This document shows positions 1 through 19,833 of a stretch of DNA of 56,875 nucleotides, piece after piece. The translations under genes were made by a program, and so were the position numbers. The first letter of the stretch is position 1. Every line of letters begins with the position of its first letter. Origin of the DNA: an uncultured Gemmatimonadota bacterium (GTDB lineage Bacteria; Gemmatimonadota; Gemmatimonadetes; Gemmatimonadales; GWC2-71-9); the NCBI GenBank assembly GCA_937961295.1, contig CALGOK010000144.1, positions 1 to 56,875 of the forward strand, given 5' to 3'. Under the pieces are notes generated by a model. That model saw only the letters and a list, made by a program, of their open reading frames with translations. It searched no databases and was not told the origin of the DNA.

Positions 1-60
1 ATCGAGGAGCGGCATGGAGGAATCGGACACCGGACCGGTCATTCGGAAATCTCGAGGGAA

Positions 61-135
61 CTGTCACCCCGAGTCCTCGCGCAGCGAGGGCGAGGGGGAG
101 GGGGGAGGGGGCGGGGGCTGTCTCCTCACGGCGAG
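61..135. repeat. Palindromic extragenic repeat, GTCACCCCGAG family (copy near window edge)
   Basis: 61-98 CTGTCACCCCGAGTCCTCGCGCAGCGAGGGCGAGGGGG equals the reverse complement of 40286-40323 and differs by 1 nt from 41337-41374. The right boundary is uncertain. Confidence 0.7.
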
Positions 136-288: not shown

Positions 289-732
289 TTACTGCGCCCT
301 GGTCATCTCCACGCGCAGCAGCACCACCGAGTCGGCGGTGGTCACGCCGGGGTAGCGCGCGGTGACGGTGCCGACCATGCGGCCGTCGACCAGGCGGTAC
401 ACGCCGGTGGTGCTCACCATCTGGCCGGGTCGCAGGGCGCTCGGGTATTCGCCGCTCACCAGCATGATGCTGTCGCCGGCCACGGTCACGTTGGTCGGCT
501 GGGGCTCGCGGCCCGCGAGCACCATGTGGTAGGCACCGTTGCTGGCGGTGAACTGGCCGGTGACGATCACGGTGTCGGCGTCCATCGGGCGCGTCTGGAA
601 GTTCCAGATGCCCTCGATGTCGGCGGCACTCAGGGCGGGCGCCATGGTCGTGGTGTCCATCGCGGCGTCGTCGGCGTCCTCGGCGGCGCAGGCCACGAGG
701 AGCGAGGCGGCACAGAGCAGGGCTAGGCGCAT
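289..732 (-). CDS. Small secreted lipoprotein, function unknown (paralog of 838..1275)
   Basis: Internal ATG at 732 gives MRLALLCAASLLVACAAE, a lipobox-like signal. It aligns along its length with the neighbouring ORF (IEGIWNFQTRPMDADTVIVTG versus LVGTWAFEVMPLDRDTVIVTG). Confidence 0.75.
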   Translation of the reverse strand: MRLALLCAASLLVACAAEDADDAAMDTTTMAPALSAADIEGIWNFQTRPMDADTVIVTGQFTASNGAYHMVLAGREPQPTNVTVAGDSIMLVSGEYPSALRPGQMVSTTGVYRLVDGRMVGTVTARYPGVTTADSVVLLRVEMTRAQ

Positions 733-837
733 CAGAGGCTCCAATGTGGGGAATCGGGGGTGACGGAGGCTACCGCGGTGTCGCCGAACCGGCAACCGGG
801 CGCTTCGCTTCTCTCTTCTCTCTTCTCTCTGCCATAA

Positions 838-1275
838 CTACTCCCTCACCCTCGTCATTCTCGCCCGATACTGCGCCACCGAGTCGCCGCTGGTCATCCC
901 GTCGTAGCGCGACGTCACCACGCCCACGAGTTCGCCGTCCTGCACCACGTAGCTGCCGGTGGTGGTCACCATCACGCCGTCGTAGATGGCGCTCTGGTAC
1001 GGCCCGGTGCGGGTGCGGACGGTGTCGCCGTCGACGGTGATGGTGCTGGTGTGCGACTCGCGGCCGGTGAGGGTCATGGTGAACACCGGCGGGTCGCCCG
1101 CGCCCACCAGCGTGCCGGTGACGATCACGGTGTCGCGGTCGAGCGGCATGACCTCGAACGCCCAGGTGCCGACCAGGTCGGCGGTGCCGAGCGGTGGGGC
1201 GGCGGGGGCATCAGCATCGGCGGCCGGTTCGGCGGCGCAGGCGGCGAGGAGGAGGAGGGCGGGGAGGGTGCGCAT
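838..1275 (-). CDS. Small secreted lipoprotein, function unknown (paralog of 289..732)
   Basis: ATG at 1275 gives MRTLPALLLLAACAAE. It is a tandem paralog of the downstream gene and ends ...RARMTRV like its partner (...RVEMTRA). Confidence 0.75.
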   Translation of the reverse strand: MRTLPALLLLAACAAEPAADADAPAAPPLGTADLVGTWAFEVMPLDRDTVIVTGTLVGAGDPPVFTMTLTGRESHTSTITVDGDTVRTRTGPYQSAIYDGVMVTTTGSYVVQDGELVGVVTSRYDGMTSGDSVAQYRARMTRVRE

Positions 1276-1293
1276 GGGATTAATGGTAGTTGT

Positions 1294-1368
1294 GGTGAAG
1301 GGTGAAGGGTGACGGGTGAAGGGGGGCGGTCGGGCAAGCCCTTCACCCGTCACCCTTCACCCTTCACC
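1294..1368 (-). terminator. Perfect 30-bp inverted repeat built from tandem heptamers (GGTGAAG-like x4); probable terminator or 5' leader hairpin
   Basis: 1294-1323 GGTGAAGGGTGAAGGGTGACGGGTGAAGGG is the exact reverse complement of 1339-1368, with a 15-nt loop. It lies 11 nt downstream of the stop of 1379..2458 and 19 nt upstream of the start at 1275. Confidence 0.55.
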
Positions 1369-2584: not shown

Positions 2585-3859
2585 ATGCGGCTTCCCCTCC
2601 TGTTGGCCGTGGTGCTCGTGGCCGGGTGCGATGGTGCGCCGGCACGCTCCGGCAACCTCGGACTCGCCAGTGGCGAGCCGGTGCTTCCCGACACCCAGAC
2701 GATCGACGGCGTGCTGGTGATGCGGCACGGCGCCGACGCGTTCGCGCGCGCGCCGGTGTGGACGCTCGACACGGTGCCGCAGGTGGTGATTGATGGGGGG
2801 GAGGAGTTTGATCTCTCCGGGGTGCCCGCACCACCGATTCAGTTGTCAGGTGGCCGCTGGGTCACGCTTAAGGCGATCTCTGGCGTGGAGCTCGTGCTCT
2901 TCGACAGCACAGGTCATCCGATCCGGTTGATCGCGGGCATGGGCTCCGGTCCAGGCGAGTTGATGCGGCCGCAGCTGGTCGCCTCACCCGGCGGTGACAC
3001 TCTGGCGGTGGTCGATGATGCCAACCGCACCCGCAACCTCTATCACCCCGACCACGGACTGGTCAGCTCCGACCGGTTCGACGGCACGGTGGCGCTGTTC
3101 TGTTTCCGTCCGGGCGGTTGGTTGCCGGACGGTCGGGCCGTCGCGATTGGTGGCTGCAGCTCGAACCGGCGAAGCGCAGACGGCGAGCTGAGCACCGACA
3201 CGCCGTTGGTGTTGATCGCCGCAGACATGTCGTCCACCGACACGGTCGCGATGGTCCCCGGCGCCCAGATGAGGATGGCCGAGGCACGGAGCGGGTCACA
3301 CCGCATGATGGTGCCGATGTGGGTGCGGCTCGGGCGTGCCACGTCGGTGACCACAGTCGACAGCGCGATCGTGGTGGCGAGCGGGGTGGGCGGCTACGTG
3401 CTCGAGCTGCGCGACGGCACGGGTCGGGTGACCGGACGCATCGAGGTGGATCGACCGGCCGTGATGGTGACCGACGCGATGCGGGAGGCGGTCATCGCCC
3501 TCGAGCTCGAGCGGCTCTCGACCTACTCCGAGGGTGGCCAGATGAATCCCGACGCGGAGCGGATGACGCGCGAGGGCCCGATCGCCGACACGCTCCCGGC
3601 GTATCAAGCCGTGTTCCCTGGAGAGGGTGGCCTGTTCTGGGTCATGGATCATGTGTTGCCGGGCGACACGACCTGGGCCGCCACGGCATTCAGGGCCGAC
3701 GGCGCGATCGTCGCACGGATTCGGGGGTCGTTGACGCCGGGTCCCTATGGCGCAGGTCCTGTAGCGTTCCTGCGCGACCGGGTGATCATGCGCGAGGCGG
3801 ATGGGGATGGGGTGGTGAGGTTTGGGGTTTATGGGGTGATCGGCGTCGGCCATCGCTGA
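2585..3859 (+). CDS. Lipoprotein, function unknown
   Basis: ATG at 2585 gives MRLPLLLAVVLVAGCDG, a lipobox. It is a 424-aa ORF with coding-like composition and no catalytic motif I recognise. Confidence 0.7.
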   Translation: MRLPLLLAVVLVAGCDGAPARSGNLGLASGEPVLPDTQTIDGVLVMRHGADAFARAPVWTLDTVPQVVIDGGEEFDLSGVPAPPIQLSGGRWVTLKAISGVELVLFDSTGHPIRLIAGMGSGPGELMRPQLVASPGGDTLAVVDDANRTRNLYHPDHGLVSSDRFDGTVALFCFRPGGWLPDGRAVAIGGCSSNRRSADGELSTDTPLVLIAADMSSTDTVAMVPGAQMRMAEARSGSHRMMVPMWVRLGRATSVTTVDSAIVVASGVGGYVLELRDGTGRVTGRIEVDRPAVMVTDAMREAVIALELERLSTYSEGGQMNPDAERMTREGPIADTLPAYQAVFPGEGGLFWVMDHVLPGDTTWAATAFRADGAIVARIRGSLTPGPYGAGPVAFLRDRVIMREADGDGVVRFGVYGVIGVGHR

Positions 3860-3926
3860 TTCCTCACCGCGACGACGAGCTCGAGGTTCGAGTTCTCCAC
3901 GATCATGATGCAATCGGGGATGCGAG

Positions 3927-5792
3927 ATGAGAGCATGGCACTTTCGAGAGTTCCTGCCCGGCGACAATCTGTCCGACCCCGATTTCACGAAGGCGTTGTT
4001 CGCTAGTGATGACGAAGCCTCATTGGGCCGCTCATTGATACGGGAGGCGATCCAGAACTCATTGGACGCACAGCGGCCCGATGCCACTGCAGTAACGGTC
4101 CGTATCGGTGTGTTCCGGTTCTCAAACGCTCTGTCGCCGCGTGAGATCAGCGAGTTCCTGAGCGGTGCGTGGCCTCATGTGTGTGCGGACGATGCAGGAC
4201 TGGAGGATCCACCAACTCAAGGTGAGCGCGTTCCCTTCCTGGTGATTGAGGACTTTGGCACCCATGGACTGGTCGGGGATCCGGAGCATTGGCAACCTAC
4301 CGAGATCTCGAGCAACGGGTTCTACCTCTTCTTTCGGGCTCTCGGCCGGAGCGGAAAGTCTGATGAGGAGCGGGGTCGATGGGGGGTTGGCAAGTTTGTG
4401 TTCCCGATGTCCAGTCGAGCACACATGATCTGGGGCCTCACTGTACCATCGGACTCGGGGTCTCCGCTGCTGATGGGCCGAGCTGTGCTTAGGACGCACA
4501 CTATCGGCCCACAGTCATTCCACCCGGATGGGCATTGGGGGGATCGGCTGGATGAGGGTTCAAGACTCGTGTCGCCGGTCAGGGATCCGGAGACCGTCCA
4601 ACGATTCGTGGAGCGGTTCCGACTGGAGCGCGGAAACGAACCGGGGCTCTCGGTTGTAGTTCCCTACGTTGATCGCGACATCGCAATTCCCATCCTTCGT
4701 CACTCTGCCATAGTAGAGTACTTCCTACCTCTATTGCGCGGCGAGCTGAGTATGGAGCTCGCACACGACGGTGGTGTGGAGATCGTCGATGGACACGCCG
4801 TACGCGAGTTTGTGTCAGAGGCCAACTCTCGCTCGGCCCAAGAGCGACTTGCGCTCGCAATCGCCGTCACCGACGGAGAGACCCGACAAATTGTCTGGCC
4901 GCAGATCTTCAGGTATGACGACATGGAATGGTCGTCTGCGCTCATCAGCGACGGCGTTATCGAGGAGTTGCGAGACTGTTTGGAGTCTGGGCAGGCTGTG
5001 TCGGTCGTTCTCCGGCTCGTCATCTGCAGCAGAATGGGCGCTGAAGACCTTGAGGGCCGGATTGTTGTCCACTTGCGACGAGTTGAAGGTCTGGGCAACT
5101 GCCGTCCGCTCCTGATCCGCGCCGGTATTTCCGTTGCCGGGGAACGAACCAAGGCACTACTGGATCATGTCTCGATTCTGCTCGCCGAGGACTGTCCGGT
5201 GGCTACTATGATCGGAGATGCGGAGACGCCTGCTCATGAACAGCTCCAACATGATCTACTCAAGGGCAAGTACCAGTATCCGAGGAAGATGATCTCTTTC
5301 GTGCGGGATGCCGCTAGCAACCTGTTGAGGACAGTATGGGAGGCAGATCAAGCCGATGATCCATTCGCGCTTGCAAACTACTTTCCCCTCATTTCCATCG
5401 ACGGCCGCAAGGCGGACAAGCCAACTCCTCGAAAGCGAGGCAATCATCCGGAACCGGAACCAACTCTGCCTGAGAAGCCAAGGCGATTCAACATCCGCAA
5501 GACTGCGGACGGCTTCCGGGTTGAAGGGAACCGAAATGCAACTACGTATCCGGAGGAGCTGAGCATTTCCGTCGCATACGATGTTCGGCGAGGGAATCCG
5601 TTCAAGAGGTACCGCAGGTTCGACTTCGACCTAGAGACCCTGCCAAGGTCGGTTATCGATTGCGAGCTGGCCTCAATCGAGCCAAACAGGATCGTAGCGC
5701 GCCCGAGTTCGGCCGGGTTTGCGGTGGGCGTCTCTGGCTTCGACTCCCGTCGCGACCTGGTTGTGCGTGTGGTTGCTTCAGGTGGTGAGTGA
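3927..5792 (+). CDS. GHKL-superfamily ATPase (MORC/Hsp90/MutL-like Bergerat fold), 621 aa
   Basis: N-box SLIREAIQNSLDA (E40, N44, D47), G1 box FLVIEDFGTHGL (D109-x-G-x-x-G) and G2 box GRWGVGKFVF are all present. The start is an ATG with GGGGA 6 nt upstream. GC is lower than in the flanks. Confidence 0.8.
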   Translation: MRAWHFREFLPGDNLSDPDFTKALFASDDEASLGRSLIREAIQNSLDAQRPDATAVTVRIGVFRFSNALSPREISEFLSGAWPHVCADDAGLEDPPTQGERVPFLVIEDFGTHGLVGDPEHWQPTEISSNGFYLFFRALGRSGKSDEERGRWGVGKFVFPMSSRAHMIWGLTVPSDSGSPLLMGRAVLRTHTIGPQSFHPDGHWGDRLDEGSRLVSPVRDPETVQRFVERFRLERGNEPGLSVVVPYVDRDIAIPILRHSAIVEYFLPLLRGELSMELAHDGGVEIVDGHAVREFVSEANSRSAQERLALAIAVTDGETRQIVWPQIFRYDDMEWSSALISDGVIEELRDCLESGQAVSVVLRLVICSRMGAEDLEGRIVVHLRRVEGLGNCRPLLIRAGISVAGERTKALLDHVSILLAEDCPVATMIGDAETPAHEQLQHDLLKGKYQYPRKMISFVRDAASNLLRTVWEADQADDPFALANYFPLISIDGRKADKPTPRKRGNHPEPEPTLPEKPRRFNIRKTADGFRVEGNRNATTYPEELSISVAYDVRRGNPFKRYRRFDFDLETLPRSVIDCELASIEPNRIVARPSSAGFAVGVSGFDSRRDLVVRVVASGGE

Positions 5793-6541
5793 TGAGTGTG
5801 AGTCACCTGAACTACACGGGCAGGAAGCGGATCGCGCGGACATCTGTGTTGGTTGGAGTCGGAGGTGAACTCCCGGACGCTTCAGTGGTGGCTTCCTTCG
5901 ACCTCCAACCATACGATTTCCCCGGAACTGCGAGAGTTGTGATCGAGGCCCAAGCCGGGTGGACGATCCAGCGCTTTGACTTCGGTACGGTTCAAGAGTA
6001 CCGAGCGCCTTCCGATTCGAGGCTGAGCGAGTTCGCGTCGCTGGCCGGCCTCCTGTTCCGACTCAAGGTCGTGGCCACAGGTGATCAAGAGGGACGTCTG
6101 CTGGGCGCCGCGGATCGCCTCCGACCGTCCGGTGCCACCGAGGAGGCAGCTCAGCGCTCATTTGTGGTTGTTCGGCCAGAGGATCTTGGCGATCGCATCT
6201 GGCAACTTGACTTCGATGAGCATCAGCCTTTGCTCCTTGTGAATAGCGGCATGGGTGATCATCACGAGTTCCTGCGGCGAAGGTCAGTAGCAGCACTTGT
6301 TCTGCCAGAGGTGTTCAGTCAACTGCTTCGACATGCTGTCGAATATGGATCTGAAGAGGAGGAGCTCGACAACTGGCGCAGTATGGCTATCAGGATGGGA
6401 GAGCACATGGCTGCTCGAAGCTTGCCACAGGTTGACGATCCTGAAGCCATAGCGGATTGGGTCGATGATTGTGTCCGAGTCTTTTGTCGACGGCATCGCT
6501 TCTTAGAGGCGATGGCAGAGTGGGTCGAGGGGGCAGAATGA
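5792..6541 (+). CDS. Hypothetical protein, translationally coupled to the GHKL ATPase
   Basis: ATG 5792 overlaps the upstream TGA stop (TGATG); GTG 5789 is an alternative start. About 249 aa, acidic C-terminal half, no motif I recognise. Confidence 0.65.
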   Translation: MSVSHLNYTGRKRIARTSVLVGVGGELPDASVVASFDLQPYDFPGTARVVIEAQAGWTIQRFDFGTVQEYRAPSDSRLSEFASLAGLLFRLKVVATGDQEGRLLGAADRLRPSGATEEAAQRSFVVVRPEDLGDRIWQLDFDEHQPLLLVNSGMGDHHEFLRRRSVAALVLPEVFSQLLRHAVEYGSEEEELDNWRSMAIRMGEHMAARSLPQVDDPEAIADWVDDCVRVFCRRHRFLEAMAEWVEGAE

Positions 6542-7260
6542 GTGGGACTCTCAGGTCGCTTACTGAAGAGGGATTCAGGGAAGCATCACTTCGGCTCGCA
6601 CGTATTCGCTCCGGCGAATCCCATGAGCTCGGGTCTGATCTTCTTGGCGATCCGACGTACAGTAATAGCACAACCATCCCCTTCGAGCCCGTGACTCATG
6701 CAGCCGCGACGTCGCGGTGGCATCTGGCAATCTTCCTCTTCCGAATGTTCGACCAGTACCGCGACGCGATGACACCGGGTACGTGGTCCTGGTTTGCGCT
6801 GCGATCACTGGGTGTTCTGAGTGTCGAGGGCGATTCCAAGCGGATTGTGAAGGAAGACGCGCGATACCTGCTGCAGGAGAGAGACTACAGAAAGGCCTAC
6901 AGGCACCTGCTTGCTGGCCCATTCTTGCTCTTCTCTGCTCACAGCAACGACCCGACAGCCGTCAGAGGTCTGTTGGCGACCCGGCTGGATGCACCCGGGG
7001 AGGTCTACGAGCAGCTGGCTTCTCGCAAGTTTCTTATCACGAGCCGTGGTGTGGTTCGCCTCGCGACCACCATGTACTTCGACGAATCCAATGAGAGGTT
7101 GCGGCGCGGTGCCGGCGGATCGGGTGCGGGCAGTCCGCGTCGATTCAGCGAAGTGCTCCAGCAGCTGGATCTCACCTACGATCTGCAGGACATTTCGAAC
7201 GAGAGGCTTGCCGTGCTGCTACCGCGGGAGTTCGCTCGGTTCCTCAAGGCTAGCACATGA
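6538..7260 (+). CDS. Hypothetical protein, third gene of the GHKL operon
   Basis: ATG 6538 overlaps the upstream stop as ATGA (6538-6541). 240 aa, no motif I recognise. The upstream part of ORF 6469..7260 is ignored. Confidence 0.65.
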   Translation: MSGTLRSLTEEGFREASLRLARIRSGESHELGSDLLGDPTYSNSTTIPFEPVTHAAATSRWHLAIFLFRMFDQYRDAMTPGTWSWFALRSLGVLSVEGDSKRIVKEDARYLLQERDYRKAYRHLLAGPFLLFSAHSNDPTAVRGLLATRLDAPGEVYEQLASRKFLITSRGVVRLATTMYFDESNERLRRGAGGSGAGSPRRFSEVLQQLDLTYDLQDISNERLAVLLPREFARFLKAST

Positions 7261-7388
7261 TCTGGGCCTCCCCACCAAGCAATGGGCTCCCGGTCGAAGT
7301 AGGGCGGGCTTCGGGGGCTTCCGGTTGCTTGACAAAAAGAGGACGGAGCTAGTTGCGATCTGTCTGTATGTGTCTTAATGTCATCTCT

Positions 7389-8660
7389 ATGTCCCTCCGA
7401 ACGAACCCCGAAAATGGCGACTCCAGGCGCTTCCGCGAGCTGCGGGAGCTTCTTGGCCTGTCCCAACGCGAAGCCGCGGCGAAGTTGGGCTTCTCGGCCC
7501 GTCAGGTAGCCCGCTGGGAGGCTGGCGAGGTCAAGGTCAGACGAGCCGCCCTGACTGCCCTCGAGGCACTCTGTCCGGCGGAGCCCGTGGGCACGGGCAG
7601 GTTCACCTTCATCGACCTGTTCGCGGGCATCGGCGGGTTTCGTCTCGGATTCGAGTCGGTCGGTGGCCGCTGCGTCTTCACTTCCGAATGGGACCGGCAC
7701 GCCCAGAAGAGCTACAAGGCCAATTTCGGCGACCATGAGGTTCACGGAGACATCCGGCGTATCGAGGCCGACGACGTTCCGGATCATGACGTCCTCCTTG
7801 CCGGATTTCCATGTCAGCCGTTCAGTATTGCGGGGGTCTCCAAGAAGAATGCCCTCGGACGGAGTCACGGATTCGAATGCGAGACCCAGGGAACCCTCTT
7901 CTTCGACATCGAGCGGATCATCGAGGCCAAGCAGCCTCGCGCATTTGTGCTCGAGAACGTGAAGAACCTCGTATCCCACGATCGCCGCAACACGTTCAGT
8001 GTCATCAAGCGCACCTTGTCGGAGAAGCTGGGATACCGGATCGCCTGCCGCGTCATCGATGCAAGGCATTGGGTTCCTCAGCACCGCGAGCGGATCTTCA
8101 TCGTCGGGCTTCACCCGGACCTAGAATCGCGGTTCGACTTCGACGAAGTAGTTGTTCCCGATGCAGGTCCGCGTCTGAACTCGATCCTTCATCCCACGGA
8201 TGGCACCGGACCCGCGGAGGAACCCTACACCGACAATGCGGGACGTCCGTCGCGGAAGTACGTTCTCTCGGACCACTTGTGGAGTTACCTGAAGGCCTAC
8301 GCTTCCAAGCACAAGGCGAAGGGCAACGGATTCGGGTTCGGCTTGGTCAAGCCAGGTGACACCGCCAGAACCCTCTCCGCCCGCTACTACAAGGACGGAT
8401 CCGAGATCCTGATCCATCGGGGGCGAGGGAATCCGCGCCGGCTGACGCCACGCGAGTGTGCCCGACTCATGGGTTTCGACGCCGGGCGGAAGGAGCCATT
8501 CCGGATCGTCGTGTCGGACACCCAGGCCTACAAGCAGTTCGGCAATGCTGTCGCAGTTCCGGTGGTCAAGTCGATCGCAAAGGCGCTGCAGCCATATCTA
8601 CAGGGTCGCCGAACGGGGAAGGGCATTGAGTCGGAGGCCCTTGAGCTCCAGCTGGCCTGA
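7389..8660 (+). CDS. dcm: DNA (cytosine-5) methyltransferase, Dcm/M.EcoRII type, with N-terminal XRE-type HTH
   Basis: [28 protein letters not shown] (motif I), [29 protein letters not shown] (motif IV), FVLENVKNL and [10 protein letters not shown] match E. coli Dcm closely. The N-terminal [23 protein letters not shown] is an HTH. The start could be 7353 (TTG), 7368 or 7389. Confidence 0.92.
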
Positions 8661-8662
8661 GA

Positions 8663-9079
8663 ATGGCCGACATTGTCAGCAAGGCCGTCCGAAGCCGGAT
8701 GATGAGCGGCATCAGGGGGCGTGACACTGAACCGGAGAGAGTTGTACGATCGCACCTCCACCGGGCGGGACTACGGTTTCGCCTTCACGCACGCGAGCTT
8801 CCAGGCAGCCCGGACGTGGTCCTCCCAAAATGGAAGACTGTTGTGTTCGTTCATGGATGCTATTGGCACCGCCATCCCGGATGTCGATTCGCAACCACTC
8901 CGTCGACAAACACAAGCTTCTGGAATCAGAAGTTCGAGCTGAACGTGTCTCGTGATGTGCGGAACCAAAGAGCCCTCCGTCGCCTCGGATGGCGTGTGCT
9001 GACTGTGTGGGAGTGCAACCTTTCGAGTGAGCGACTTCGCCGCCTTGTCCGGACAATTCGATCTTCCCATCGAGCCTGA
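8663..9079 (+). CDS. vsr: Very short patch repair endonuclease
   Basis: SRMMSGIRGRDTEPE...PGSPDVVLPKWKTVVFVHGCYWHRHPGC...NTSFWNQKF..N..RD is the Vsr signature. The gene starts 3 nt after the dcm stop. Confidence 0.9.
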   Translation: MADIVSKAVRSRMMSGIRGRDTEPERVVRSHLHRAGLRFRLHARELPGSPDVVLPKWKTVVFVHGCYWHRHPGCRFATTPSTNTSFWNQKFELNVSRDVRNQRALRRLGWRVLTVWECNLSSERLRRLVRTIRSSHRA

Positions 9080-10295
9080 CACACCGATACTGCTGGCTGC
9101 GAAGCGGCTTGCCGCAGTAGAGATATCGGTGTCGGCTTCCAACCAGCATGAACTCAACGCAGGGATGCTCCGGAAGGCGCTCGCGCTTCCCGAAGCGGGA
9201 GTGTCGGGGCGCCTCGAGCTGCACTACGTCGGTACGAGCGCACGTCTCCTCGATCATGAGTCCACTTTGTACACGCTTTACGACTCGCGAAAGGGCAAGC
9301 CCCGAAGCGCCGAGTATCGGCTCTACTACGCGTCTGCCATGCTGCAGCAACGTGCGAGTGAGGGCGACATCCTCATCGTCTTGCGCCAACCTGATTCCAC
9401 GGACCTTCACGCTCTGGTTGTGCCTGCAGGCTCTCAGCTCGGCAGTACGCTTTCTGTAATCCTCGACGATATCGGATCGCCTCTCTCGACTCGCTTCCGC
9501 CACGTCCGAAAGGCGATCGGAGTGGGTGCCCTTGAGCAACTGCTCGCGAGTCTCACAGAACCTATCGCCGGGCCGGATGCAGGCCGTGTGATTGCCGCAG
9601 CGGACAAGACGTTCGTGTCAGGAGTCCTCGCCAGCGACCAATTGCCCACTACCCGGTCCATGGCAGAAGAAGCACAGAGGATTCTCGCGGAACTTTGGCC
9701 CGGTCCGATCGATGCCGATCAGCATCTGTTCTGGCTGCTCGAGGTCGAGACGTTTCTGTTCCAGCACCTGGAACAACAGCTCGGCCAGCAGGCCTTGGAT
9801 GCAGCGACCCAAGAAGGGCGGATCCCGTTCGAGGCAGCGGTCGCACTGGTGCTGTCTCGACTTCAGTCAAGGAAGTCCCGGCGAGGGCAAAGCCTCCAGC
9901 ACCATTTCGCGGCAGTCCTGACCCGCAACGGAATCCCCTACACGGCACAGGGCGTGACGGAAGGGAAGGAATCGCCCGACTTCATCATTCCCGGTCAGGC
10001 GGCATACGACGACAAGACGCTACCCGATGATCTGTTGAGAATGGTCGCGTGCAAGTCTGTGGTCCGTGAGCGCTGGAGGCAGATTCTGTCCGAGGCCGCG
10101 CGCATTGAAGCGAAGTACCTTCTCACTGTAGATACGGATCTCTCGACGGATGGGCTGCAGGCAATGCGAGCTGCGAACCTCTCGGTGTTTATGCCCCGGC
10201 AAGTCCTAGACACAGCTTATGATGGCGGAGGATATGACAGGAATCTCCGCGACGTTGGTGCTCTGCTGGATGAGCTTCGCGCAGTGCTCCGGTAG
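9027..10295 (+). CDS. Type IIE restriction endonuclease, EcoRII family
   Basis: The C-terminal half SRKSRRGQSLQHHF...GKESPDFIIPGQAAYDD...LLRMVACKSVVRERWRQILSEAARI closely parallels EcoRII as I recall it (NRRKSRAGKSLELHL...KKPDFLFPS...LRMLAVKTTCKDRWRQILNEA). The GTG start at 9027 overlaps vsr by 53 nt; TTG at 9045 is an alternative. Confidence 0.85.
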   Translation: MSDFAALSGQFDLPIEPDTPILLAAKRLAAVEISVSASNQHELNAGMLRKALALPEAGVSGRLELHYVGTSARLLDHESTLYTLYDSRKGKPRSAEYRLYYASAMLQQRASEGDILIVLRQPDSTDLHALVVPAGSQLGSTLSVILDDIGSPLSTRFRHVRKAIGVGALEQLLASLTEPIAGPDAGRVIAAADKTFVSGVLASDQLPTTRSMAEEAQRILAELWPGPIDADQHLFWLLEVETFLFQHLEQQLGQQALDAATQEGRIPFEAAVALVLSRLQSRKSRRGQSLQHHFAAVLTRNGIPYTAQGVTEGKESPDFIIPGQAAYDDKTLPDDLLRMVACKSVVRERWRQILSEAARIEAKYLLTVDTDLSTDGLQAMRAANLSVFMPRQVLDTAYDGGGYDRNLRDVGALLDELRAVLR

Positions 10296-10335
10296 CGAGA
10301 TTGACATTGAGTCTCAGGTGCAGGAGAATGTCGGC

Positions 10336-10794: not shown

Positions 10795-10973
10795 GGGAAC
10801 CCACCCTTTCGCTTGGCGTCGCCGCCTCGCGCGCGCATCCCCCGTGAGTGGGGAGCCACCGTGACCCTCGGGCGAGGGGTCGGTTGGCAGGCGGCCACGT
10901 GCCGCCACTCCTGATGCCCGGCCCGCCGAGACGGAGGCGGACCGTGAGAAGATCATAACAATTTCCCCGGAGC

Positions 10974-11087
10974 CTGTCACCCCGAGGTCGCGTAGCGACC
11001 GAGGGGGCGGAACCTGCCGAATGCACGTGCAAGCTCCGCCCCCTCGCTTCTCCCTCGCTTCGCTCGGGACAAGGCTCGGGGTGACAG
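10974..11087. repeat. Palindromic extragenic repeat, GTCACCCCGAG family (full unit)
   Basis: CTGTCACCCCGAGG...GAGGGGGCGGAAC...GCTCCGCCCCCTC...CTCGGGGTGACAG. The outer and inner inverted repeats are both visible. Confidence 0.85.
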
Positions 11088-11145
11088 CAGCTCGTCAGAA
11101 GACTCACAACTGGTTTCAGGTGTCCTCGTGCGATACTCTAGGCAG

Positions 11146-12045
11146 ATGAATTGGTCATCACTGTTCGCTGTCGGATTGCTCCTCCCCGCCTGCGCCCCCG
11201 CTCAGGCGCCCGGGCTCCCGTTCGAGTTCGCCGGCCACATCTTCTTCCACGCCACCATCAACGGCGACTCCGCCCGGCTGCTCTACGACCCGATCGACAA
11301 CCTGATGCTCGATCGCCAGTTCGTCCTCCGCCGGCCCGGCTGGCACCGCACCTGGCGCGACATCGGATATCCGGCGCGGGCCACGGCACGGGGCGGCGGC
11401 GGGGATGAAGTGGAGGTGACCTTCGCCGATTCGGTGACCCTCGAACTCGGCGAGATGCGCCGATTCCTCCCGCGCGTCCCCGTCATCCCGCTCGACTCGA
11501 TGCTCGGCAACGCCGCCGACAGACAGGTCGACGGACTGCTCGGCACCACCTTTTTTGGCGATCAGGCCCTGCAGCTCAACTTCACCACCCTGCGCGCCCA
11601 ACTGCTCGACCCCGCGACCATCGACACCACCGGCTGGCAGGTGCTGCCTCTCATCGTCACCGGCCCGCGCGCCACCACCATGCTGCAGGTCACCTGGCCC
11701 GACGGCTCACACGACTCGCTCCGCACCCTGATCGACCTCGGCATGAGCGCCACGCTCCGCGTCAGCACCCGCGAAACCAACGCCCGCAACCTCACCCGCC
11801 ACGCCACCTCCACCACCGCCGATACGCTCGGTCGCGGACTCGGCGGCACGCTGACGTCTCTGCCGGTGGAAGGGACAACGGTGCAGTTCGGCAAACTCAC
11901 CAGCGAACCGTTCCGCACCTGGCTCGCCCGCGAACCCACCGGCGCCGACGCCAACCCGCCCTACGACGCGCTGATCGGGTTCGGCGTGCTGGCGCGGTTC
12001 GAGATCATCTACGATCCGGGGAATGAGAGGATGCTGGTGAGGTGA
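11146..12045 (+). CDS. Secreted protein, possibly retropepsin-like (clan AA) aspartyl protease fold
   Basis: MNWSSLFAVGLLLPACAPAQA is a signal peptide. LLGTTFFGDQALQLNF and ALIGFGVLARFEIIYDPGNERMLV resemble the retropepsin-like C-terminal strands. The catalytic D(T/S)G is not clear. Confidence 0.6.
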   Translation: MNWSSLFAVGLLLPACAPAQAPGLPFEFAGHIFFHATINGDSARLLYDPIDNLMLDRQFVLRRPGWHRTWRDIGYPARATARGGGGDEVEVTFADSVTLELGEMRRFLPRVPVIPLDSMLGNAADRQVDGLLGTTFFGDQALQLNFTTLRAQLLDPATIDTTGWQVLPLIVTGPRATTMLQVTWPDGSHDSLRTLIDLGMSATLRVSTRETNARNLTRHATSTTADTLGRGLGGTLTSLPVEGTTVQFGKLTSEPFRTWLAREPTGADANPPYDALIGFGVLARFEIIYDPGNERMLVR

Positions 12046-12058
12046 TCCCCTTGGGGCC

Positions 12059-12203
12059 CTGTCACCCCGAGGAACTGTCACCCCGAGGGAGCGTAGCGAC
12101 CGAGGGGGCGGAACCCGCCGAATGCGAATGCCGGCCTCCGCCCCCTCACTGCTCCCTCGCTTCGCTCGGGACAAGGCTCGGGGTGACAGTTCCTCGGGGT
12201 GAC
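12059..12203. repeat. Palindromic repeat, GTCACCCCGAG family, with duplicated termini
   Basis: The left end is TGTCACCCCGAGGAAC followed by TGTCACCCCGAGGG. The right end is CTCGGGGTGACAGTTCCTCGGGGTGAC. It starts 13 nt after the upstream stop. Confidence 0.85.
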
Positions 12204-12219
12204 TGGCATACATTGCACC

Positions 12220-13323
12220 ATGCCTAAGCTCACTGATGTCCCAACCCCCGCCCTCGTCCTCGACCGCGCCATCCTCGCGCGCAACCTCGACCGCATGACC
12301 CGCGCGGTGGGTCGCCACGGCGTGGTGCTCCGCCCGCACCTCAAGACCGCCAAGAGCGCCGACGTGGCGCGGATGGCGATGGAACGCGGCGCCAAGGGGA
12401 TCACGGTGTCGACCGTCGCCGAGGCGGCGTACTTCGCCGAACACCGCTTCGACGACATCCTGCTGGCGGTGAGCATCACACCGGAGAAGCTCGCGCGACT
12501 CGAACCGGTGATCGCCAAGGGCGCGCGAGTGACGGTGCTCACCGACAGCATCGCGGTGGCCAAGGCGATTGCCGAATCACCGCTGCCGGTGCGCGCGCTG
12601 ATCGAGATCGATTGCGGCGAGCATCGCTCCGGCGTCTTTGCCGACGATCCGGTGCTGCTCGAGATCGCCGGCGCGCTGGGCGACCGGCTGGCCGGGGTGA
12701 TGACCCACGCCGGCTACCGCGGCAGAACGCCCGCGGAACACGCCGTGGTCGCGGAGCAGGAACGCACCGCGGTGGTCGACGCGGCGGAGCTGATCGGGCG
12801 GAGCGGTCGCTCGGTTGAGGTCGTGTCGGTCGGCTCGACGCCCACGGCGATGTTTGCCGAGCGACTCGATGGAGTGACCGAGGTGCGGGCGGGGGTGTAC
12901 ATGTTCGGCGACCTGTTCCAGGCGGCGATCGGTGCATGCGCCCACGACGAGATCGCGGTGACGGTGCTCGCGTCGGTGATCGGCCACCGGGTGGAGCACG
13001 GCGTGCTGGTGCTCGATGCCGGCGCGCTGGCGCTGTCCAAGGATCGCAGCACCGAGACCACCGCGCACGACGCGGGATTCGGCACGGTGTGGGACCTGGA
13101 TGGCAAGCCTGCGTTCGGTACCACGAAGATCGTGCGCGTCTACCAGGAGCACGGCCTGGCGATGTGCGAAGGCCACTGGCCGTGGGATGCGCTGCCGATC
13201 GGCGCCAAGGTGCGCATCGCGCCGAACCACAGCTGCATCACCGCCGCGGCCTACGACCGCTACCACGTGGTGGACGGCGGGCAGGAGGTGGTGGCGGAGT
13301 GGGGTAGGTGCGTGGGGTGGTAG
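12220..13323 (+). CDS. PLP-dependent D-serine deaminase / D-threonine aldolase-like enzyme (alanine racemase N-terminal fold)
   Basis: TPALVLDRAILARNLDRM....VLRPHLKTAKS carries the PLP lysine in an HxKT context. The length and the C-terminal ...RIAPNHSCITAA motif fit the DSD1 family. Confidence 0.8.
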   Translation: MPKLTDVPTPALVLDRAILARNLDRMTRAVGRHGVVLRPHLKTAKSADVARMAMERGAKGITVSTVAEAAYFAEHRFDDILLAVSITPEKLARLEPVIAKGARVTVLTDSIAVAKAIAESPLPVRALIEIDCGEHRSGVFADDPVLLEIAGALGDRLAGVMTHAGYRGRTPAEHAVVAEQERTAVVDAAELIGRSGRSVEVVSVGSTPTAMFAERLDGVTEVRAGVYMFGDLFQAAIGACAHDEIAVTVLASVIGHRVEHGVLVLDAGALALSKDRSTETTAHDAGFGTVWDLDGKPAFGTTKIVRVYQEHGLAMCEGHWPWDALPIGAKVRIAPNHSCITAAAYDRYHVVDGGQEVVAEWGRCVGW

Positions 13324-13373
13324 GAGCCGTCCCCCCGCCCGCTTCCCGACTCCGGGATCCTGACGTACTCTCG

Positions 13374-13892
13374 ATGCCTCCCCACCCAAGGAGACACCCC
13401 GTGATCCGGTCCCGCGTCCCAGCCGCCCTCGCCACGCTCCTGCTGCTCGCCGCGTGCACCGCCGAGCAGGCGCCTCCCGCCGAACCGGTCGAGAGCGATC
13501 AGGCGGCAGTGGCCGCCGCGATCGACTCGGCGTTCACGGCGTTCTTCGACGCCGCCAAGGTCGGTGACGTCGACGCCATGCTCACCCACCTCACCGCCGA
13601 TGCCCGGATCCTCGAGCCCGGGATTCGTGCGGGCCGCGACGAGTTCGGGACGATCGTTCGTGAACTCTTCGGGGCTGACGGCGGGGTGGTCTCGATCGAC
13701 CTCAGGCGCGACGATCTCTTCGGCCACGGCGACGTGGTGTACGACGTGGGCGAGTATGACGAGGTCCTCGCCACGGTGCATGGCGAGATGCGGATCGAAG
13801 GGAACTACTTCATCCGCTGGGAGCGCGGCGACGACGGCGCCTGGCGGATCGACCGCGTGGTGGTGGGCCCGCGCGCGGCACCGGAGATGTAG
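13374..13892 (+). CDS. Lipoprotein with SnoaL/DUF4440-like (NTF2 fold) domain
   Basis: The signal ...VPAALATLLLLAACTAEQ is present. The body (AAAIDSAFTAFFDAAKVGDVDAMLTHLTADARILEPG...YFIRWERGDDGAWRIDRVVV) is typical NTF2-like. The start is ATG 13374 or GTG 13401. Confidence 0.7.
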   Translation: MPPHPRRHPVIRSRVPAALATLLLLAACTAEQAPPAEPVESDQAAVAAAIDSAFTAFFDAAKVGDVDAMLTHLTADARILEPGIRAGRDEFGTIVRELFGADGGVVSIDLRRDDLFGHGDVVYDVGEYDEVLATVHGEMRIEGNYFIRWERGDDGAWRIDRVVVGPRAAPEM

Positions 13893-13936
13893 GCGAAGCT
13901 CGAGATCCCTGCGCCACAACCGAACGGAGCACCGAC

Positions 13937-14035
13937 ATGAGCGGTTTGTCCATTGGAATCTTCGTGGGTGTGTTCGTGGTGATCGTGCTGGCGGGGTGGT
14001 ACGTGGCTACGCGCTCGAAGGACGGCCAGTCGTAA
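13937..14035 (+). CDS. Possible 32-aa single-pass membrane peptide
   Basis: ATG 13937 to TAA 14033-14035 encodes MSGLSIGIFVGVFVVIVLAGWYVATRSKDGQS. It sits tightly between neighbouring genes and is too short for the ORF track. Confidence 0.35.
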   Translation: MSGLSIGIFVGVFVVIVLAGWYVATRSKDGQS

Positions 14036-14037
14036 CC

Positions 14038-14541: not shown

Positions 14542-14565
14542 CAGGGCCCATGTATGTGAAGTTGC

Positions 14566-15093: not shown

Positions 15094-15219
15094 GGGGGAA
15101 ATGTCGCCCCAAGCGCGCCAAGCGGGGGAGGCTGACGGAGTCCATCATGGCGACGGAGGGGCCGCAATTCCATTCGCCACAACGCGTTAGCCGGTGCCGC
15201 GTCTTCGTGGTGACTCTCG

Positions 15220-15255
15220 ATATGCTCTTGCAAGCATATACCGCAAGAGGCATAT
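15220..15255 (+). promoter_or_regulatory. Putative operator of the toxin-antitoxin operon
   Basis: ATATGCT-N6-AGCATAT (15220-15239) is followed by GCAAGAGGCATAT (15243-15255), which mirrors ATATGCTCTTGC. It ends 4 nt before the toxin ATG. Confidence 0.45.
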
Positions 15256-15258
15256 TCG

Positions 15259-15932: not shown

Positions 15933-15934
15933 CA

Positions 15935-16156: not shown

Positions 16157-16178
16157 TGGCCCATATGAGTGGGATTGC

Positions 16179-16478: not shown

Positions 16479-16542
16479 GTGGGATGTTCACGTGAGGAAG
16501 GCGAATGCCGTGGTACATGTTCGCGCAGCGGTACACGAGAAA

Positions 16543-16725: not shown

Positions 16726-16750
16726 ACCCGCTGACCCAAGAGGATCCACG

Positions 16751-19831: not shown

Positions 19832-19833
19832 TC

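What the first reader, a model, noticed from the sequence alone, without database searches (positions are those of the whole stretch)
3927..7260. Translationally coupled three-gene operon led by a GHKL (MORC/Hsp90-like) ATPase, directly upstream of an EcoRII-type R-M module: candidate uncharacterised defence system
Seen in sequence:
- Gene A (621 aa) carries a complete Bergerat-fold signature: REAIQNSLDA with E40/N44/D47, IEDFGTHGL and GRWGVGKF. About 450 further residues show nothing I recognise.
- Gene B starts on the stop of A (TGATG at 5790-5794).
- Gene C starts on the stop of B (ATGA at 6538-6541). The three are therefore almost certainly made stoichiometrically from one mRNA.
- B (about 249 aa, acidic C-terminus) and C (240 aa) show no nuclease, helicase, TM or other catalytic motif visible by eye.
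- The operon has clearly lower GC than the flanks. It contains none of the repeat elements that saturate the core. It sits 128 nt upstream of, and co-oriented with, dcm-vsr-EcoRII.

Established knowledge:
- GHKL ATPases of the prokaryotic MORC/paraMORC type were described as components of R-M-like conflict operons.
- GHKL-type ATPases also occur in some experimentally validated anti-phage systems.

Inference: this is an NTP-dependent sensor/clamp with two novel partner proteins, forming a defence or conflict module of a type I cannot match to any named system.
Basis: partly seen in the sequence, partly recalled or inferred. Interest (0 to 1): 0.85.

Follow-up and report, generated by a model that had tools for sequence, protein, structure and literature searches.

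The report
GHKL-ATPase trio partnered with cytosine methylases
The three overlapping genes are real and form a widespread, experimentally untested cassette (a GHKL ATPase plus two small proteins, distantly related to the PADLOC candidate PDC-M33). Across phyla its steady partner is a cytosine-5 DNA methyltransferase rather than EcoRII, so it is probably the ATP-driven attacking arm of a restriction-modification-like defence.

Summary
A (3927-5792), B (5792-6541) and C (6538-7260) overlap as TGATG and ATGA, and they lie in a low-GC island (about 0.59 against 0.69) together with dcm-vsr-EcoRII.

- **A** is a GHKL ATPase with a transducer domain. Foldseek matches Topo VI-B at 1.5e-11, and also Hsp90, SMCHD1 and MutL.
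- **C** gives a confident model (pLDDT 94) with no fold match in PDB or BFVD.
- **B** could not be modelled.

None of the three hits Pfam, NCBIfam or PDB by sequence.

The trio is not wholly unmatched. Profile-profile comparisons tie it to the unvalidated PADLOC candidate PDC-M33:
- A: 100% probability, E 2e-38.
- C against DUF6339/PDC-M33C: 95%, E 3e-8.
- B: weak, supported mainly by intermediate sequences.

PADLOC models themselves would miss it.

Relatives of A occur in 441 species genomes. The only recurrent neighbours are B, C, a C5 methyltransferase, Vsr and, less often, EcoRII. The methyltransferase is adjacent in 25 of 36 well-flanked window-type loci and 14 of 14 PDC-M33-type loci. 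It appears in several orientations and belongs to at least three subfamilies, usually with no recognisable restriction enzyme nearby.

Best reading (about 0.45): a methylation-guarded, ATP-gated effector resembling a restriction enzyme. No nuclease was found and no function has been tested.

The parts
3927..5792 (+). Gene A, 621 aa: GHKL ATPase, transducer domain, helical region, disordered Pro/Lys-rich linker and C-terminal beta-sandwich. It is a divergent homolog of PDC-M33A.
   Evidence: ORF. The AlphaFold model has pLDDT 83 and pTM 0.70. Foldseek matches Topo VI-B at 1.5e-11, plus Hsp90, SMCHD1, ParE and MutL N40. hhalign against PDC-M33A gives 99.9-100% probability, E 9e-31 and 2e-38. The search found 257 homologs.
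4044..4067 (+). GHKL motif I (E40-x3-N44-x2-D47, in REAIQNSLDA).
   Evidence: E40, N44 and D47 are invariant in 28 homologs.
4251..4271 (+). GHKL motif II (D109-F-G-T-H-G-L, the DxGxG type).
   Evidence: E108, D109, T112, G114 and L115 are invariant.
4374..4394 (+). GHKL motif III / ATP-lid glycine loop (G150-R-W-G-V-G-K156).
   Evidence: G150, R151, W152, G153, G155 and K156 are invariant. The loop just before it (residues 141-150) has low pLDDT, as expected of a mobile lid.
5217..5237 (+). Invariant D431-x-E433-x-P435-x-H437 loop (GDAENPAH), an ExxxH motif at the end of the transducer region.
   Evidence: It is invariant in alignment A1. E and H are also invariant in PDC-M33A proteins and align in hhalign. 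ExxxH in the C-terminal part of the S5 domain is the stated hallmark of paraMORC2 (PMC2292703). The loop has low pLDDT.
5487..5780 (+). C-terminal all-beta domain of A (residues 521-618), with conserved GGF, AYDVRRGNP and TGFD motifs.
   Evidence: Secondary structure and conservation. Only weak Foldseek matches to small beta-sandwich domains were found.
5792..6541 (+). Gene B, 249 aa: no known domain. It is a probable remote homolog of PDC-M33B.
   Evidence: Start verified. No Pfam, PADLOC, NCBIfam or PDB hit. A profile search of 1.84e9 representative proteins found 2214 at E<=1e-3, and the best 150 are all free-standing proteins of about 250 aa. Intermediate proteins hit both B profiles. hhalign gives 41%, E 2.8e-4.
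6538..7260 (+). Gene C, 240 aa: divergent DUF6339/PDC-M33C-like protein whose fold is not represented in PDB or BFVD.
   Evidence: Start verified. Model has pLDDT 94.4 and pTM 0.90. Best Foldseek E is 2.5 in PDB and 0.27 in BFVD. hhalign against 52 DUF6339-type proteins gives 95.1%, E 3.3e-8 over 223 columns.
7261..7388 (+). 128-nt spacer between C and dcm, containing TTGACA at 7329-7334. dcm is probably a separate, self-regulated transcription unit.
   Evidence: Sequence read. The promoter scan found no full consensus site here. The Dcm protein carries an N-terminal HTH_3 domain.
7389..8660 (+). dcm: HTH-fused C5 cytosine methyltransferase with a Dcm/M.EcoRII-like target-recognition region ([14 protein letters not shown]).
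   Evidence: Pfam DNA_methylase 3.4e-83 and HTH_3 5e-9. PADLOC MTase_II 2.5e-146 and DrmMII 9.7e-134. Comparison of the target-recognition region.
8663..9079 (+). vsr: very-short-patch repair endonuclease.
   Evidence: Pfam Vsr 5.1e-27 and TIGR00632 2.4e-39.
9027..10295 (+). EcoRII-type restriction endonuclease. Only the catalytic C-domain is recognised and the true start is uncertain.
   Evidence: Pfam EcoRII-C 1.3e-38 at residues 245-396. PADLOC REase_II 7.9e-21.

Best explanation
A-B-C is a divergent clade of the three-gene PDC-M33/paraMORC-like cassette: a GHKL ATPase, a protein of about 250 aa, and a DUF6339-like protein.

**Shown**
- The three proteins are made from one tightly coupled operon.
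- A has an intact GHKL ATP site and a transducer domain.
- The cassette's steady genomic partner is a cytosine-5 DNA methyltransferase, often with Vsr and only sometimes with a classical restriction enzyme.

**Inferred**
- The methyltransferase marks host DNA.
- A dimerises on ATP binding, as Topo VI-B, MORC and MutL do, to clamp or loop DNA.
- A then licenses attack on unmarked DNA, either through B and C or through a neighbouring methylation-sensitive nuclease. The catalytic centre is unknown. Candidates are the invariant D431/E433/H437 loop of A and the invariant H123/R201/R202/D215/E231 of C.
- In this window the cassette has been joined to a complete CCWGG-type Dcm-Vsr-EcoRII system on a single low-GC insert of about 6.5 kb. 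Two restriction arms would then share one methylation mark.
For: **Fold and motifs**

**Homology to PDC-M33A/B/C**
- Homology holds with the same gene order and similar protein sizes.

**Distribution and neighbours**
- Relatives of A occur in 441 of the species genomes scanned.
- Among 82 loci the only recurrent neighbours are B, C, Dcm, Vsr and EcoRII.
- A C5 methyltransferase lies within about 5 kb in 25 of 36 well-flanked complete loci, and in 14 of 14 well-flanked PDC-M33-type metagenome loci.
- It occurs in at least four arrangements, with spacers as short as 1-52 nt. Examples are Dcm>ABC(>Vsr) and ABC>Dcm>Vsr.

**Partner swapping**
- The methyltransferases fall into at least three subfamilies with unrelated target-recognition regions.
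- These subfamilies are interleaved on the tree of A, which indicates repeated swapping of partners.

**Absence of another restriction enzyme**
- Among 93 ORFs flanking 27 Dcm-positive, EcoRII-negative loci, no family matched more than 3 members in the 25 most frequent Pfam families shown (of 145 found). The only restriction-type hit among them is a single MvaI/BcnI.

**Plasmid relatives**
- These sit beside dcm together with EcoRII-like, MutH/Sau3AI-like or AlwI-like enzymes.

**Island features**
- Low-GC insert.
- CCWGG is under-represented in the ABC operon, 3 observed against 8.1 expected.

**Precedent**
- MORC and paraMORC GHKL ATPases occur in R-M operons with Dcm and Vsr (PMC2292703).
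Against: - No nuclease, helicase or DNA-binding domain was detected in A, B or C by Pfam, NCBIfam, PADLOC, PDB sequence search or Foldseek.
- B was never modelled.
- About 30% of complete window-type loci (11 of 36 well-flanked) have no C5 methyltransferase within 8-10 kb. A self-targeting restriction arm without its methylase should be toxic, unless the methylase is encoded elsewhere.
- Some Planctomycete lineages keep A alone, or A+B only.
- In this window and 10 other loci a complete EcoRII R-M system is already present, so a second arm is not strictly needed.
- Some PDC-M33-type loci carry AspBHI-like/Mrr domains, which are typical of methylation-dependent enzymes, next to the methylase. 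That does not fit a simple 'unmethylated = foreign' rule.
- No member of the family has been tested experimentally.
Confidence: 0.45

Rival explanations
1. ABC is a self-sufficient defence system, for example abortive infection or DNA-end or DNA-structure sensing. On this view it merely travels embedded in R-M cassettes and does not use the methylation mark.
For: - PDC-M33 was defined by embedding in known defence systems.
- 11 of 36 well-flanked complete loci lack a nearby methylase.
- The Enterococcus plasmid copy sits next to AIPR with no dcm.
- Neighbours of the wider family include many unrelated nucleases and helicases.
- GHKL domains do regulate effectors in validated systems such as VcSduA (PMC12137116).
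Against: - The association is specific to C5 methyltransferases and is not spread over defence genes in general.
- It holds in 14 of 14 well-flanked PDC-M33-type loci.
- It is operon-tight, with spacers of 1-52 nt.
- It has been rebuilt repeatedly with different methylase subfamilies.
Confidence: 0.25
2. ABC has no nuclease of its own. It would be an ATP-driven DNA-looping or clamping helper that activates the neighbouring methylation-sensitive endonuclease (EcoRII, Sau3AI/MutH-like or Vsr), as MutL activates MutH and Vsr in E. coli.
For: - A has a MutL/Topo VI-B-like GHKL-plus-transducer module.
- Iyer et al. proposed DNA looping for MORC and paraMORC proteins in R-M operons, and cite the MutL-Vsr and MutL-MutH interactions.
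- The partner enzymes seen are EcoRII-like and MutH/Sau3AI-like. EcoRII and Sau3AI need two recognition sites; this last point rests on my own knowledge.
- A Vsr-like protein damages DNA when the methylase is lost in Caulobacter (PMC12907096).
Against: - Eight of the 37 Dcm-linked complete window-type loci have no detectable Vsr, and most have no recognisable restriction enzyme.
- Partner nucleases belong to unrelated families, which argues against one specific protein-protein interface.
Confidence: 0.13
3. ABC is a repair module for damage linked to 5-methylcytosine. It would be a MutL-like partner dedicated to Vsr-initiated very-short-patch repair, not a defence system.
For: - Vsr is present in 29 of 56 complete loci.
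- A resembles the MutL N-terminal fragment (1bkn, 7.7e-5).
Against: - Vsr is absent from about half of window-type loci and from 35 of 45 PDC-M33-type loci.
- No mismatch sensor is present.
- The distribution is sporadic, on islands and plasmids, and includes 441 species.
- The best structural matches are Topo VI-B, not MutL.
- In Caulobacter the Vsr-like pathway appears independent of the mismatch-repair proteins (section headings).
Confidence: 0.06

Closest known systems
PADLOC phage defence candidate PDC-M33 (CAS_00129; families FAM_02818>>FAM_02838>>FAM_01881; Payne et al. 2024 bioRxiv 10.1101/2024.01.29.577857)
   Same: - It has three co-directional genes of matching sizes: about 630, 285 and 250 aa there, against 621, 249 and 240 aa here.
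- A is homologous over about 430-490 residues, including the ExxxH loop.
- C is homologous at 95% hhalign probability.
- B is linked through intermediate sequences.
- Both clades neighbour C5 methylases, Vsr and EcoRII-like genes.
   Different: - PADLOC models find only the N-terminal 125 residues of A (9e-11) and nothing for B or C, so the tool would not call this locus.
- Sequence identity is about 20%.
- This clade lives mainly in Gemmatimonadota, Planctomycetota, Verrucomicrobiota, Acidobacteriota and Chloroflexota rather than on Gram-positive plasmids.
- It lacks the small ORF of about 75 aa that precedes A in the plasmid copies.
- PDC-M33 is itself only a prediction.
paraMORC GHKL ATPases of R-M operons, especially paraMORC2 (Iyer, Abhiman & Aravind 2008, PMC2292703)
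   Same: - A GHKL domain is followed by an S5-like second domain.
- An ExxxH motif lies at the C-terminal end of that domain.
- The neighbourhoods contain cytosine methylases, Vsr and restriction genes.
   Different: - No Pfam HATPase_c_3 or MORC hit.
- The described paraMORC neighbourhoods centre on SFII helicases, which are absent here.
- The B and C partners were not described.
- Sequence-level membership of paraMORC2 could not be tested.
Topoisomerase VI B subunit / Top6BL (type IIB topoisomerase ATPase)
   Same: - It is the best structural match, over the GHKL and transducer domains (E 1.5e-11 to 1e-8).
- The ATP-gated dimer-clamp logic is the same.
   Different: - TM-scores are low (0.27-0.42) and identity is about 10%.
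- No Spo11/Toprim-type partner is present. C matches nothing in PDB, and B has no Pfam hit or PDB sequence hit.
- The context is a methylase island, not replication.
Class 2 DISARM and BREX (methylation-guarded multi-gene defence with no classical restriction enzyme)
   Same: - A DNA methyltransferase is paired with ATP-using proteins of unclear nuclease activity.
- The window's Dcm scores 9.7e-134 against the DrmMII model.
   Different: No DrmA/B/C, PglZ, BrxC or BrxL homolog is present. A, B and C hit none of those PADLOC models.
Mza (per my recollection: MutL-type GHKL, Z1, a DUF protein and an ATPase, found with Dcm/Vsr) and VcSduA (GHKL-Shedu)
   Same: Both place a GHKL ATPase inside a defence or R-M-like locus. 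VcSduA shows that a GHKL domain can control a nuclease.
   Different: No Z1, AIPR or DUF4263 nuclease domain is present, and no PADLOC hit to these systems was found. The description of Mza comes from my own knowledge and was not checked.

Membership tests
GHKL (Bergerat-fold) ATPase superfamily | Motif I ExxxNxxD, with the catalytic Glu and the Mg-binding Asn | tested here: met
   E40, N44 and D47 are invariant in 28 homologs.
GHKL (Bergerat-fold) ATPase superfamily | Motif II DxGxG and motif III glycine-rich ATP lid | tested here: met
   D109/T112/G114 and G150/G153/G155/K156 are invariant.
GHKL (Bergerat-fold) ATPase superfamily | Bergerat fold followed by a transducer (S5-like) domain | tested here: met
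   Foldseek gives probability 1.00 to Topo VI-B, Hsp90, the SMCHD1 ATPase module, ParE and MutL N40, with alignments of 450-750 columns. The model has pLDDT 83.
MORC family proper (Pfam HATPase_c_3 type) | Sequence match to the curated GHKL/MORC profiles | tested here: not met
   No Pfam family at E<=1 for A and none at E<=0.1 for 28 homologs.
paraMORC2 (Iyer et al. 2008) | [quoted passage not shown] | tested here: met
   E433 and H437 are invariant. The equivalent E380/H384 are invariant in PDC-M33A proteins. The motif definition was read.
paraMORC2 (Iyer et al. 2008) | Sequence clustering with the published paraMORC2 members | not testable with these tools
PADLOC PDC-M33 | A protein matches model PDC-M33A | tested here: inconclusive
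   hmmscan finds only residues 35-160 at 9.3e-11, or residues 30-296 at 1e-15 to 1e-23 for other clade members. hhalign gives 100%, E 2e-38 over 421 columns.
PADLOC PDC-M33 | B protein matches model PDC-M33B | tested here: inconclusive
   No hmmscan hit. hhalign gives 41%, E 2.8e-4 over 86 columns. Intermediate proteins hit PDC-M33B-type profiles at about 1e-28 and window-type B profiles at about 1e-8.
PADLOC PDC-M33 | C protein matches model PDC-M33C / Pfam DUF6339 | tested here: inconclusive
   No hmmscan hit to PADLOC or Pfam. hhalign against 52 DUF6339-type proteins gives 95.1%, E 3.3e-8 over 223 columns.
PADLOC PDC-M33 | Gene order A>>B>>C on one strand | tested here: met
   Genuine PDC-M33 loci have the same order.
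EcoRII-type Type II R-M with Vsr (the downstream module) | C5 methyltransferase, Vsr and EcoRII catalytic domain | tested here: met
   Pfam 3.4e-83, 5.1e-27 and 1.3e-38. EcoRII-N was not detected in the window copy.
Type IIB topoisomerase (Topo VI) | Spo11/Top6A-type partner (winged-helix Tyr plus Toprim) | tested here: not met
   C has no PDB fold match. B and C have no Pfam or PDB sequence match. B's fold was not modelled.
MutL | C-terminal dimerisation/endonuclease domain | tested here: not met
   There is no Pfam or PDB hit beyond the N-terminal module. The C-terminus of A is a small beta-sandwich after a disordered linker.
Named multi-gene defence systems in PADLOC v2 (DISARM, BREX, Druantia, Mza, Zorya and others) | Any core protein model matched by A, B or C | tested here: not met
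   Only PDC-M33A is matched.
Anti-phage defence system (functional class) | Demonstrated protection against phage or plasmid | not testable with these tools
   No paper in the library mentions PDC-M33 or DUF6339. PDC systems are candidates only.

The most novel reading that the evidence does not exclude
The C5 methyltransferase plus A-B-C would be a previously unrecognised class of ATP-dependent restriction-modification system. A Topo VI-B-like GHKL clamp would gate DNA cleavage by a nuclease of a new fold: the DUF6339-like C protein, or the ExxxH loop of A. The methyltransferase would supply both the self-mark and perhaps target recognition, which would explain why cassettes swap methylase partners freely.
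Probability: 0.3. Interest if true: 0.85.

Novelty: new variant of a known kind. Interest (0 to 1): 0.62.

Why it matters
If the reading holds, a cassette would add a GHKL-driven branch to the methylation-guarded defence systems, alongside Type I and III R-M, BREX and DISARM. Relatives of A occur in at least 441 species, and the B family has more than 2,000 clusters at 50% identity.

It would also assign a function to DUF6339 and to the paraMORC-type ATPases that were predicted in 2008 but never tested.

Three practical points follow:
- Current PADLOC models miss this whole environmental clade.
- The methyltransferase should be counted as part of the PDC-M33 candidate.
- There are testable targets and cultivable or sequenced sources. 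Suggested mutations are E40/N44/D109 and E433/H437 in A, and H123/R201/R202/D215/E231 in C. Sources are Planctopirus hydrillae JC280, Rhizobium leguminosarum pRlX5, Arthrobacter agilis pAAG24-152 and Priestia megaterium p3_GEB3.

Tried and rejected
**Searches that found nothing**
- Direct profile searches of A, B, C and of 28-32 homologs each against Pfam, NCBIfam, PADLOC and PDB sequences gave nothing except the partial PDC-M33A hit.
- tblastn of A against 50,697 phage records gave no match, so the cassette is not typically phage-borne.
- Foldseek of C against PDB and BFVD gave nothing.
- Literature searches for PDC-M33, DUF6339 and GHKL+Vsr found no characterisation.

**Analyses that were limited or failed**
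- The profile search of 1.84e9 representative proteins with B listed only same-length relatives among the best 150, and no annotated remote relative.
- hhalign of B and C against single sequences or 5-6 sequences of PDC-M33 type was too weak. It became informative only after 52-53 sequences were gathered from metagenomes.
- Two attempts to scan metagenomes with over-divergent alignments failed.

**Island borders**
- I looked for target-site duplications, tRNAs, terminators and promoters. No tRNA and no convincing flanking repeat or terminator were found.

**Ideas rejected**
- B or C as a Toprim/Spo11-like partner: there are no DxD or catalytic Tyr invariants, and C has no fold match.
- The TCS-like HEF_HK/Response_reg_2 elements that are associated with paraMORCs: no Pfam hit was found.
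- EcoRII as the specific partner: it is present in only a minority of loci.

Full report
**1. Observation**

The three reading frames are as described. A runs from 3927 to 5792 (621 aa), B from 5792 to 6541 (249 aa) and C from 6538 to 7260 (240 aa). A's TGA shares a base with B's ATG (TGATG, 5790-5794). B's TGA overlaps C's ATG (ATGA, 6538-6541). Purine-rich stretches lie just upstream of both starts. The start codons are supported by the aligned N-termini of homologs.

Downstream lie an HTH-fused C5 methyltransferase (ATG 7389; the ORF is open from 7353), vsr and an EcoRII-C-domain nuclease (Pfam 3.4e-83, 5.1e-27, 1.3e-38).

GC content falls to 0.55-0.63 from about 3750 to 10300, against 0.66-0.71 on both sides. 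The compositional island is therefore the trio plus the R-M genes, one insert of about 6.5 kb. The window's REP-like palindromic repeats are absent from it; the nearest copy is at 10966-11094. No tRNA, flanking direct repeat or terminator marks the borders.

**2. The proteins**

*Sequence searches.* None of A, B or C, nor 28-32 diverse homologs of each, matches any Pfam, NCBIfam or PDB sequence. The only hit is A residues 35-160 to PADLOC model PDC-M33A (9.3e-11).

*A.* The AlphaFold model (pLDDT 83, pTM 0.70) matches the following:
- Topo VI-B at 1.5e-11 to 1e-8;
- Hsp90;
- the SMCHD1 ATPase module;
- ParE;
- MutL N40.

This confirms a GHKL domain followed by a transducer-like domain. E40, N44, D47, D109, G114, G150, G153, G155 and K156 are invariant, so the ATP site is intact. 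After the transducer come four further elements:
- an invariant, poorly ordered D431-x-E433-x-P-x-H437 loop;
- a helical segment;
- a disordered Pro/Lys-rich linker (residues 474-516);
- a conserved beta-sandwich (residues 521-618).

*C.* The model is very confident (pLDDT 94, pTM 0.90) but has no structural neighbour in PDB (best E 2.5) or BFVD (best E 0.27). Its invariant residues include H123, Y180, R201, R202, Q209, T213, D215 and E231.

Its family is large: 2214 representatives at E<=1e-3 among 1.84e9 proteins. The best 150 listed are essentially all free-standing proteins of about 250 aa.

**3. Conservation and neighbours**

A has 257 relatives in the clustered protein database. It has relatives in 441 species genomes, and 80 of those loci were fetched. 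They span Gemmatimonadota, Planctomycetota, Verrucomicrobiota, Acidobacteriota, Chloroflexota and Proteobacteria.

In 82 non-redundant loci, B follows A in about 70 and C follows B in 56. The coupling is conserved:
- the A-to-B junction overlaps or is at most 30 nt in 61 of 70 loci;
- the B-to-C junction does so in 52 of 57 loci, with -4 nt the commonest value.

Clustering all ORFs within 8 kb showed that the only recurrent neighbours are a C5 methyltransferase, Vsr and EcoRII. Every other cluster occurs in 11 loci or fewer.

Of the 56 complete loci, 37 have the methylase, 29 have Vsr and only 10 have EcoRII. Of the 36 with at least 3 kb on both sides, 25 have the methylase. The arrangements vary:
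- Dcm>A-B-C(>Vsr), with spacers of 18-25 nt;
- A-B-C>Dcm>Vsr, with spacers of 1-52 nt;
- divergent;
- convergent.

**4. The methylases are not one family**

The EcoRII-linked methylases share the Dcm/M.EcoRII target-recognition sequence with the window's enzyme ([14 protein letters not shown], 63-76% core identity). The others form two further groups. They have 27-32% core identity and unrelated recognition regions, and no EcoRII is found beside them.

On a neighbour-joining tree of A, EcoRII-type loci and class-2b loci are interleaved inside the Gemmatimonadota clade that contains the window. Closely related trios have therefore swapped methylase partners repeatedly.

In the 27 Dcm-positive, EcoRII-negative loci, 93 flanking ORFs were scanned against Pfam. 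The 25 most frequent families (of 145 found) include no family matched by more than 3 members, and the only restriction-type hit among them is a single MvaI/BcnI. Most of the listed flanks are housekeeping genes. The cassette of methylase plus ABC, with or without Vsr, therefore looks self-contained.

**5. Link to a catalogued candidate**

tblastn against plasmids found distant relatives of A. On plasmids of Arthrobacter, Paenarthrobacter, Deinococcus, Priestia, Planococcus and Enterococcus the same layout appears: a small ORF, then A (about 630 aa), B (about 285 aa) and C (about 252 aa, annotated DUF6339). These cassettes lie beside dcm, sometimes with vsr, and beside restriction enzymes of different families (EcoRII-like, MutH/Sau3AI-like, AlwI-like) or beside AIPR.

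The Arthrobacter copy is a bona fide PADLOC PDC-M33A/B/C (3.5e-82, 6.4e-30, 1e-31), and the Enterococcus copy matches the A and B models (4.8e-47, 2.3e-11). PDC-M33 is cassette CAS_00129. It comprises three protein families with 98 listed instances, was proposed by 'guilt-by-embedding', and is not validated. Neither PDC-M33 nor DUF6339 appears in any paper of the searched library.

A metagenome scan seeded with PDC-M33A gave 80 more loci. Among 45 complete cassettes, 36 have a C5 methylase in the sequence held. All 14 loci with at least 2.5 kb on both sides have one. Vsr occurs in 10 and EcoRII in 2.

With 52-61 sequences per family, profile-profile comparison to the window's families gave the following:

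| Protein | hhalign probability | E-value | Aligned columns |
|---|---|---|---|
| A | 100% | 2e-38 | 421 |
| C | 95.1% | 3.3e-8 | 223 (nearly full length) |
| B | 41% | 2.8e-4 | 86 |

In addition, a set of intermediate B proteins hits both B profiles, at about 1e-28 and about 1e-8.

The ExxxH loop is shared by both clades. It is the stated hallmark of the paraMORC2 family of Iyer et al. 2008, who had already placed MORC and paraMORC GHKL ATPases in R-M operons with cytosine methylases and Vsr.

I conclude that the window's trio is a divergent, mainly environmental clade of the PDC-M33/paraMORC-like cassette. PADLOC's own models would miss it.

**6. How it most likely works**

*Shown:*
- one operon with translational coupling;
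- an intact GHKL ATP site with a transducer domain;
- a specific, repeatedly rebuilt linkage to C5 methyltransferases;
- usually no recognisable restriction enzyme nearby;
- an island or plasmid location.

*Inferred (confidence about 0.45):* the methylase marks self DNA. ATP-driven dimerisation of A clamps or loops DNA, by analogy with Topo VI-B, MORC and MutL. The complex with B and C then attacks or disables unmarked DNA. In this window the module is coupled to a complete CCWGG-type EcoRII system, so two arms would share one mark.

*Main weaknesses:*
- no nuclease was found;
- about 30% of window-type loci have no methylase within 8-10 kb;
- some Planctomycete lineages keep A alone, or A+B only;
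- some PDC-M33-type loci carry AspBHI-like/Mrr domains beside the methylase.

*Rivals:*
- an independent defence system that is merely embedded in R-M cassettes (0.25);
- a helper without a nuclease that activates neighbouring methylation-sensitive nucleases, as MutL activates MutH and Vsr (0.13);
- a Vsr-linked repair module (0.06).

**7. Novelty and verdict**

Two points need correcting. The system is not wholly unmatched, because it is a distant member of an existing but untested candidate and of a GHKL class predicted in 2008. Its meaningful partner is the C5 methyltransferase rather than EcoRII.

I rate it a new variant of a known, predicted kind. What is new:
- the wide environmental clade;
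- the methylase as a near-constant fourth component in both clades;
- the swapping of methylase partners;
- the lack of any fold match for the DUF6339-like protein.

Interest is 0.62. It is not a categorically new system, but it is a well-defined and testable candidate for a GHKL-driven, methylation-guarded defence.

Noticed in passing
window 58-101, 10966-11094, 12036-12219, 15932-16165, 16536-16733, 19806-19845, 21497-21608, 22541-22613, 29235-29384, 38903-38950, 40098-40326, 41314-41448, 53037-53139: A family of REP/MITE-like palindromic intergenic repeats is scattered through the window. Its core reads CTGTCACCCCGAGG...GAGGGGGCGG...CCGCCCCCTC...CCTCGGGGTGACAG. No copy lies inside the low-GC island.
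   Followed up: partly
window 41787-44251 vs 44635-47111, and 50344-50660: A tandem duplication of about 2.86 kb (71-85% identity) has partial inverted copies near 50.3-50.7 kb. The gene content was not examined.
   Followed up: no
window 289-795 (-) and 838-1353 (-): Two adjacent paralogous ORFs of 168 and 171 aa share repeated DNA segments (repeat families D16, D18 and D19; ORFs).
   Followed up: no
window 3927-7260: CCWGG, the expected EcoRII/Dcm site, occurs 3 times in the ABC operon against 8.1 expected. The host flanks are not depleted, with 165 observed against 140 expected.
   Followed up: partly
window 9027-10295: The EcoRII-like ORF shows only the EcoRII-C domain in Pfam, and no EcoRII-N hit. 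Its longest ORF overlaps vsr by 53 nt, so the true start is uncertain.
   Followed up: no
L035, L044, L045, L047-L051, L057, L061, L083 (A+B only); L049, L054, L058, L064, L066, L076, L077, L081, L082 (A only): Some Planctomycete lineages keep A with B but without C, with A-B spacers of 168-399 nt. Others keep A alone, in conserved synteny with unrelated genes. This could be decay or a new role for the ATPase.
   Followed up: partly
L123, L126, L128, L130-L134, L136, L138, L148, L149, L166, L169, L170 (ORF immediately upstream of A): A conserved protein of about 420-427 aa lies between the C5 methylase and A in many PDC-M33-type metagenome loci. The one member shown (L123) has no Pfam hit. It may be a further component of that subclade.
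   Followed up: partly
PDC-M33-type loci L092-L170 (flanking ORFs): Neighbours include RE_AspBHI_N (10 ORFs), Mrr_cat (8) and NgoFVII_C (8). These are domains typical of methylation-dependent or B3-type nucleases, and here they sit next to a C5 methylase. Which ORFs carry them was not resolved.
   Followed up: no
L011:6746-8485, L012:8325-9968: Class 2a methyltransferases, which directly precede A, carry a C-terminal extension of about 170 aa with no Pfam match. It could be a docking domain for the trio.
   Followed up: no
L139:6989-10514 and 12990-15356; L074:20970-21842: L139 carries two convergent PDC-M33-type cassettes on one contig. L074 carries a second partial copy of A.
   Followed up: no
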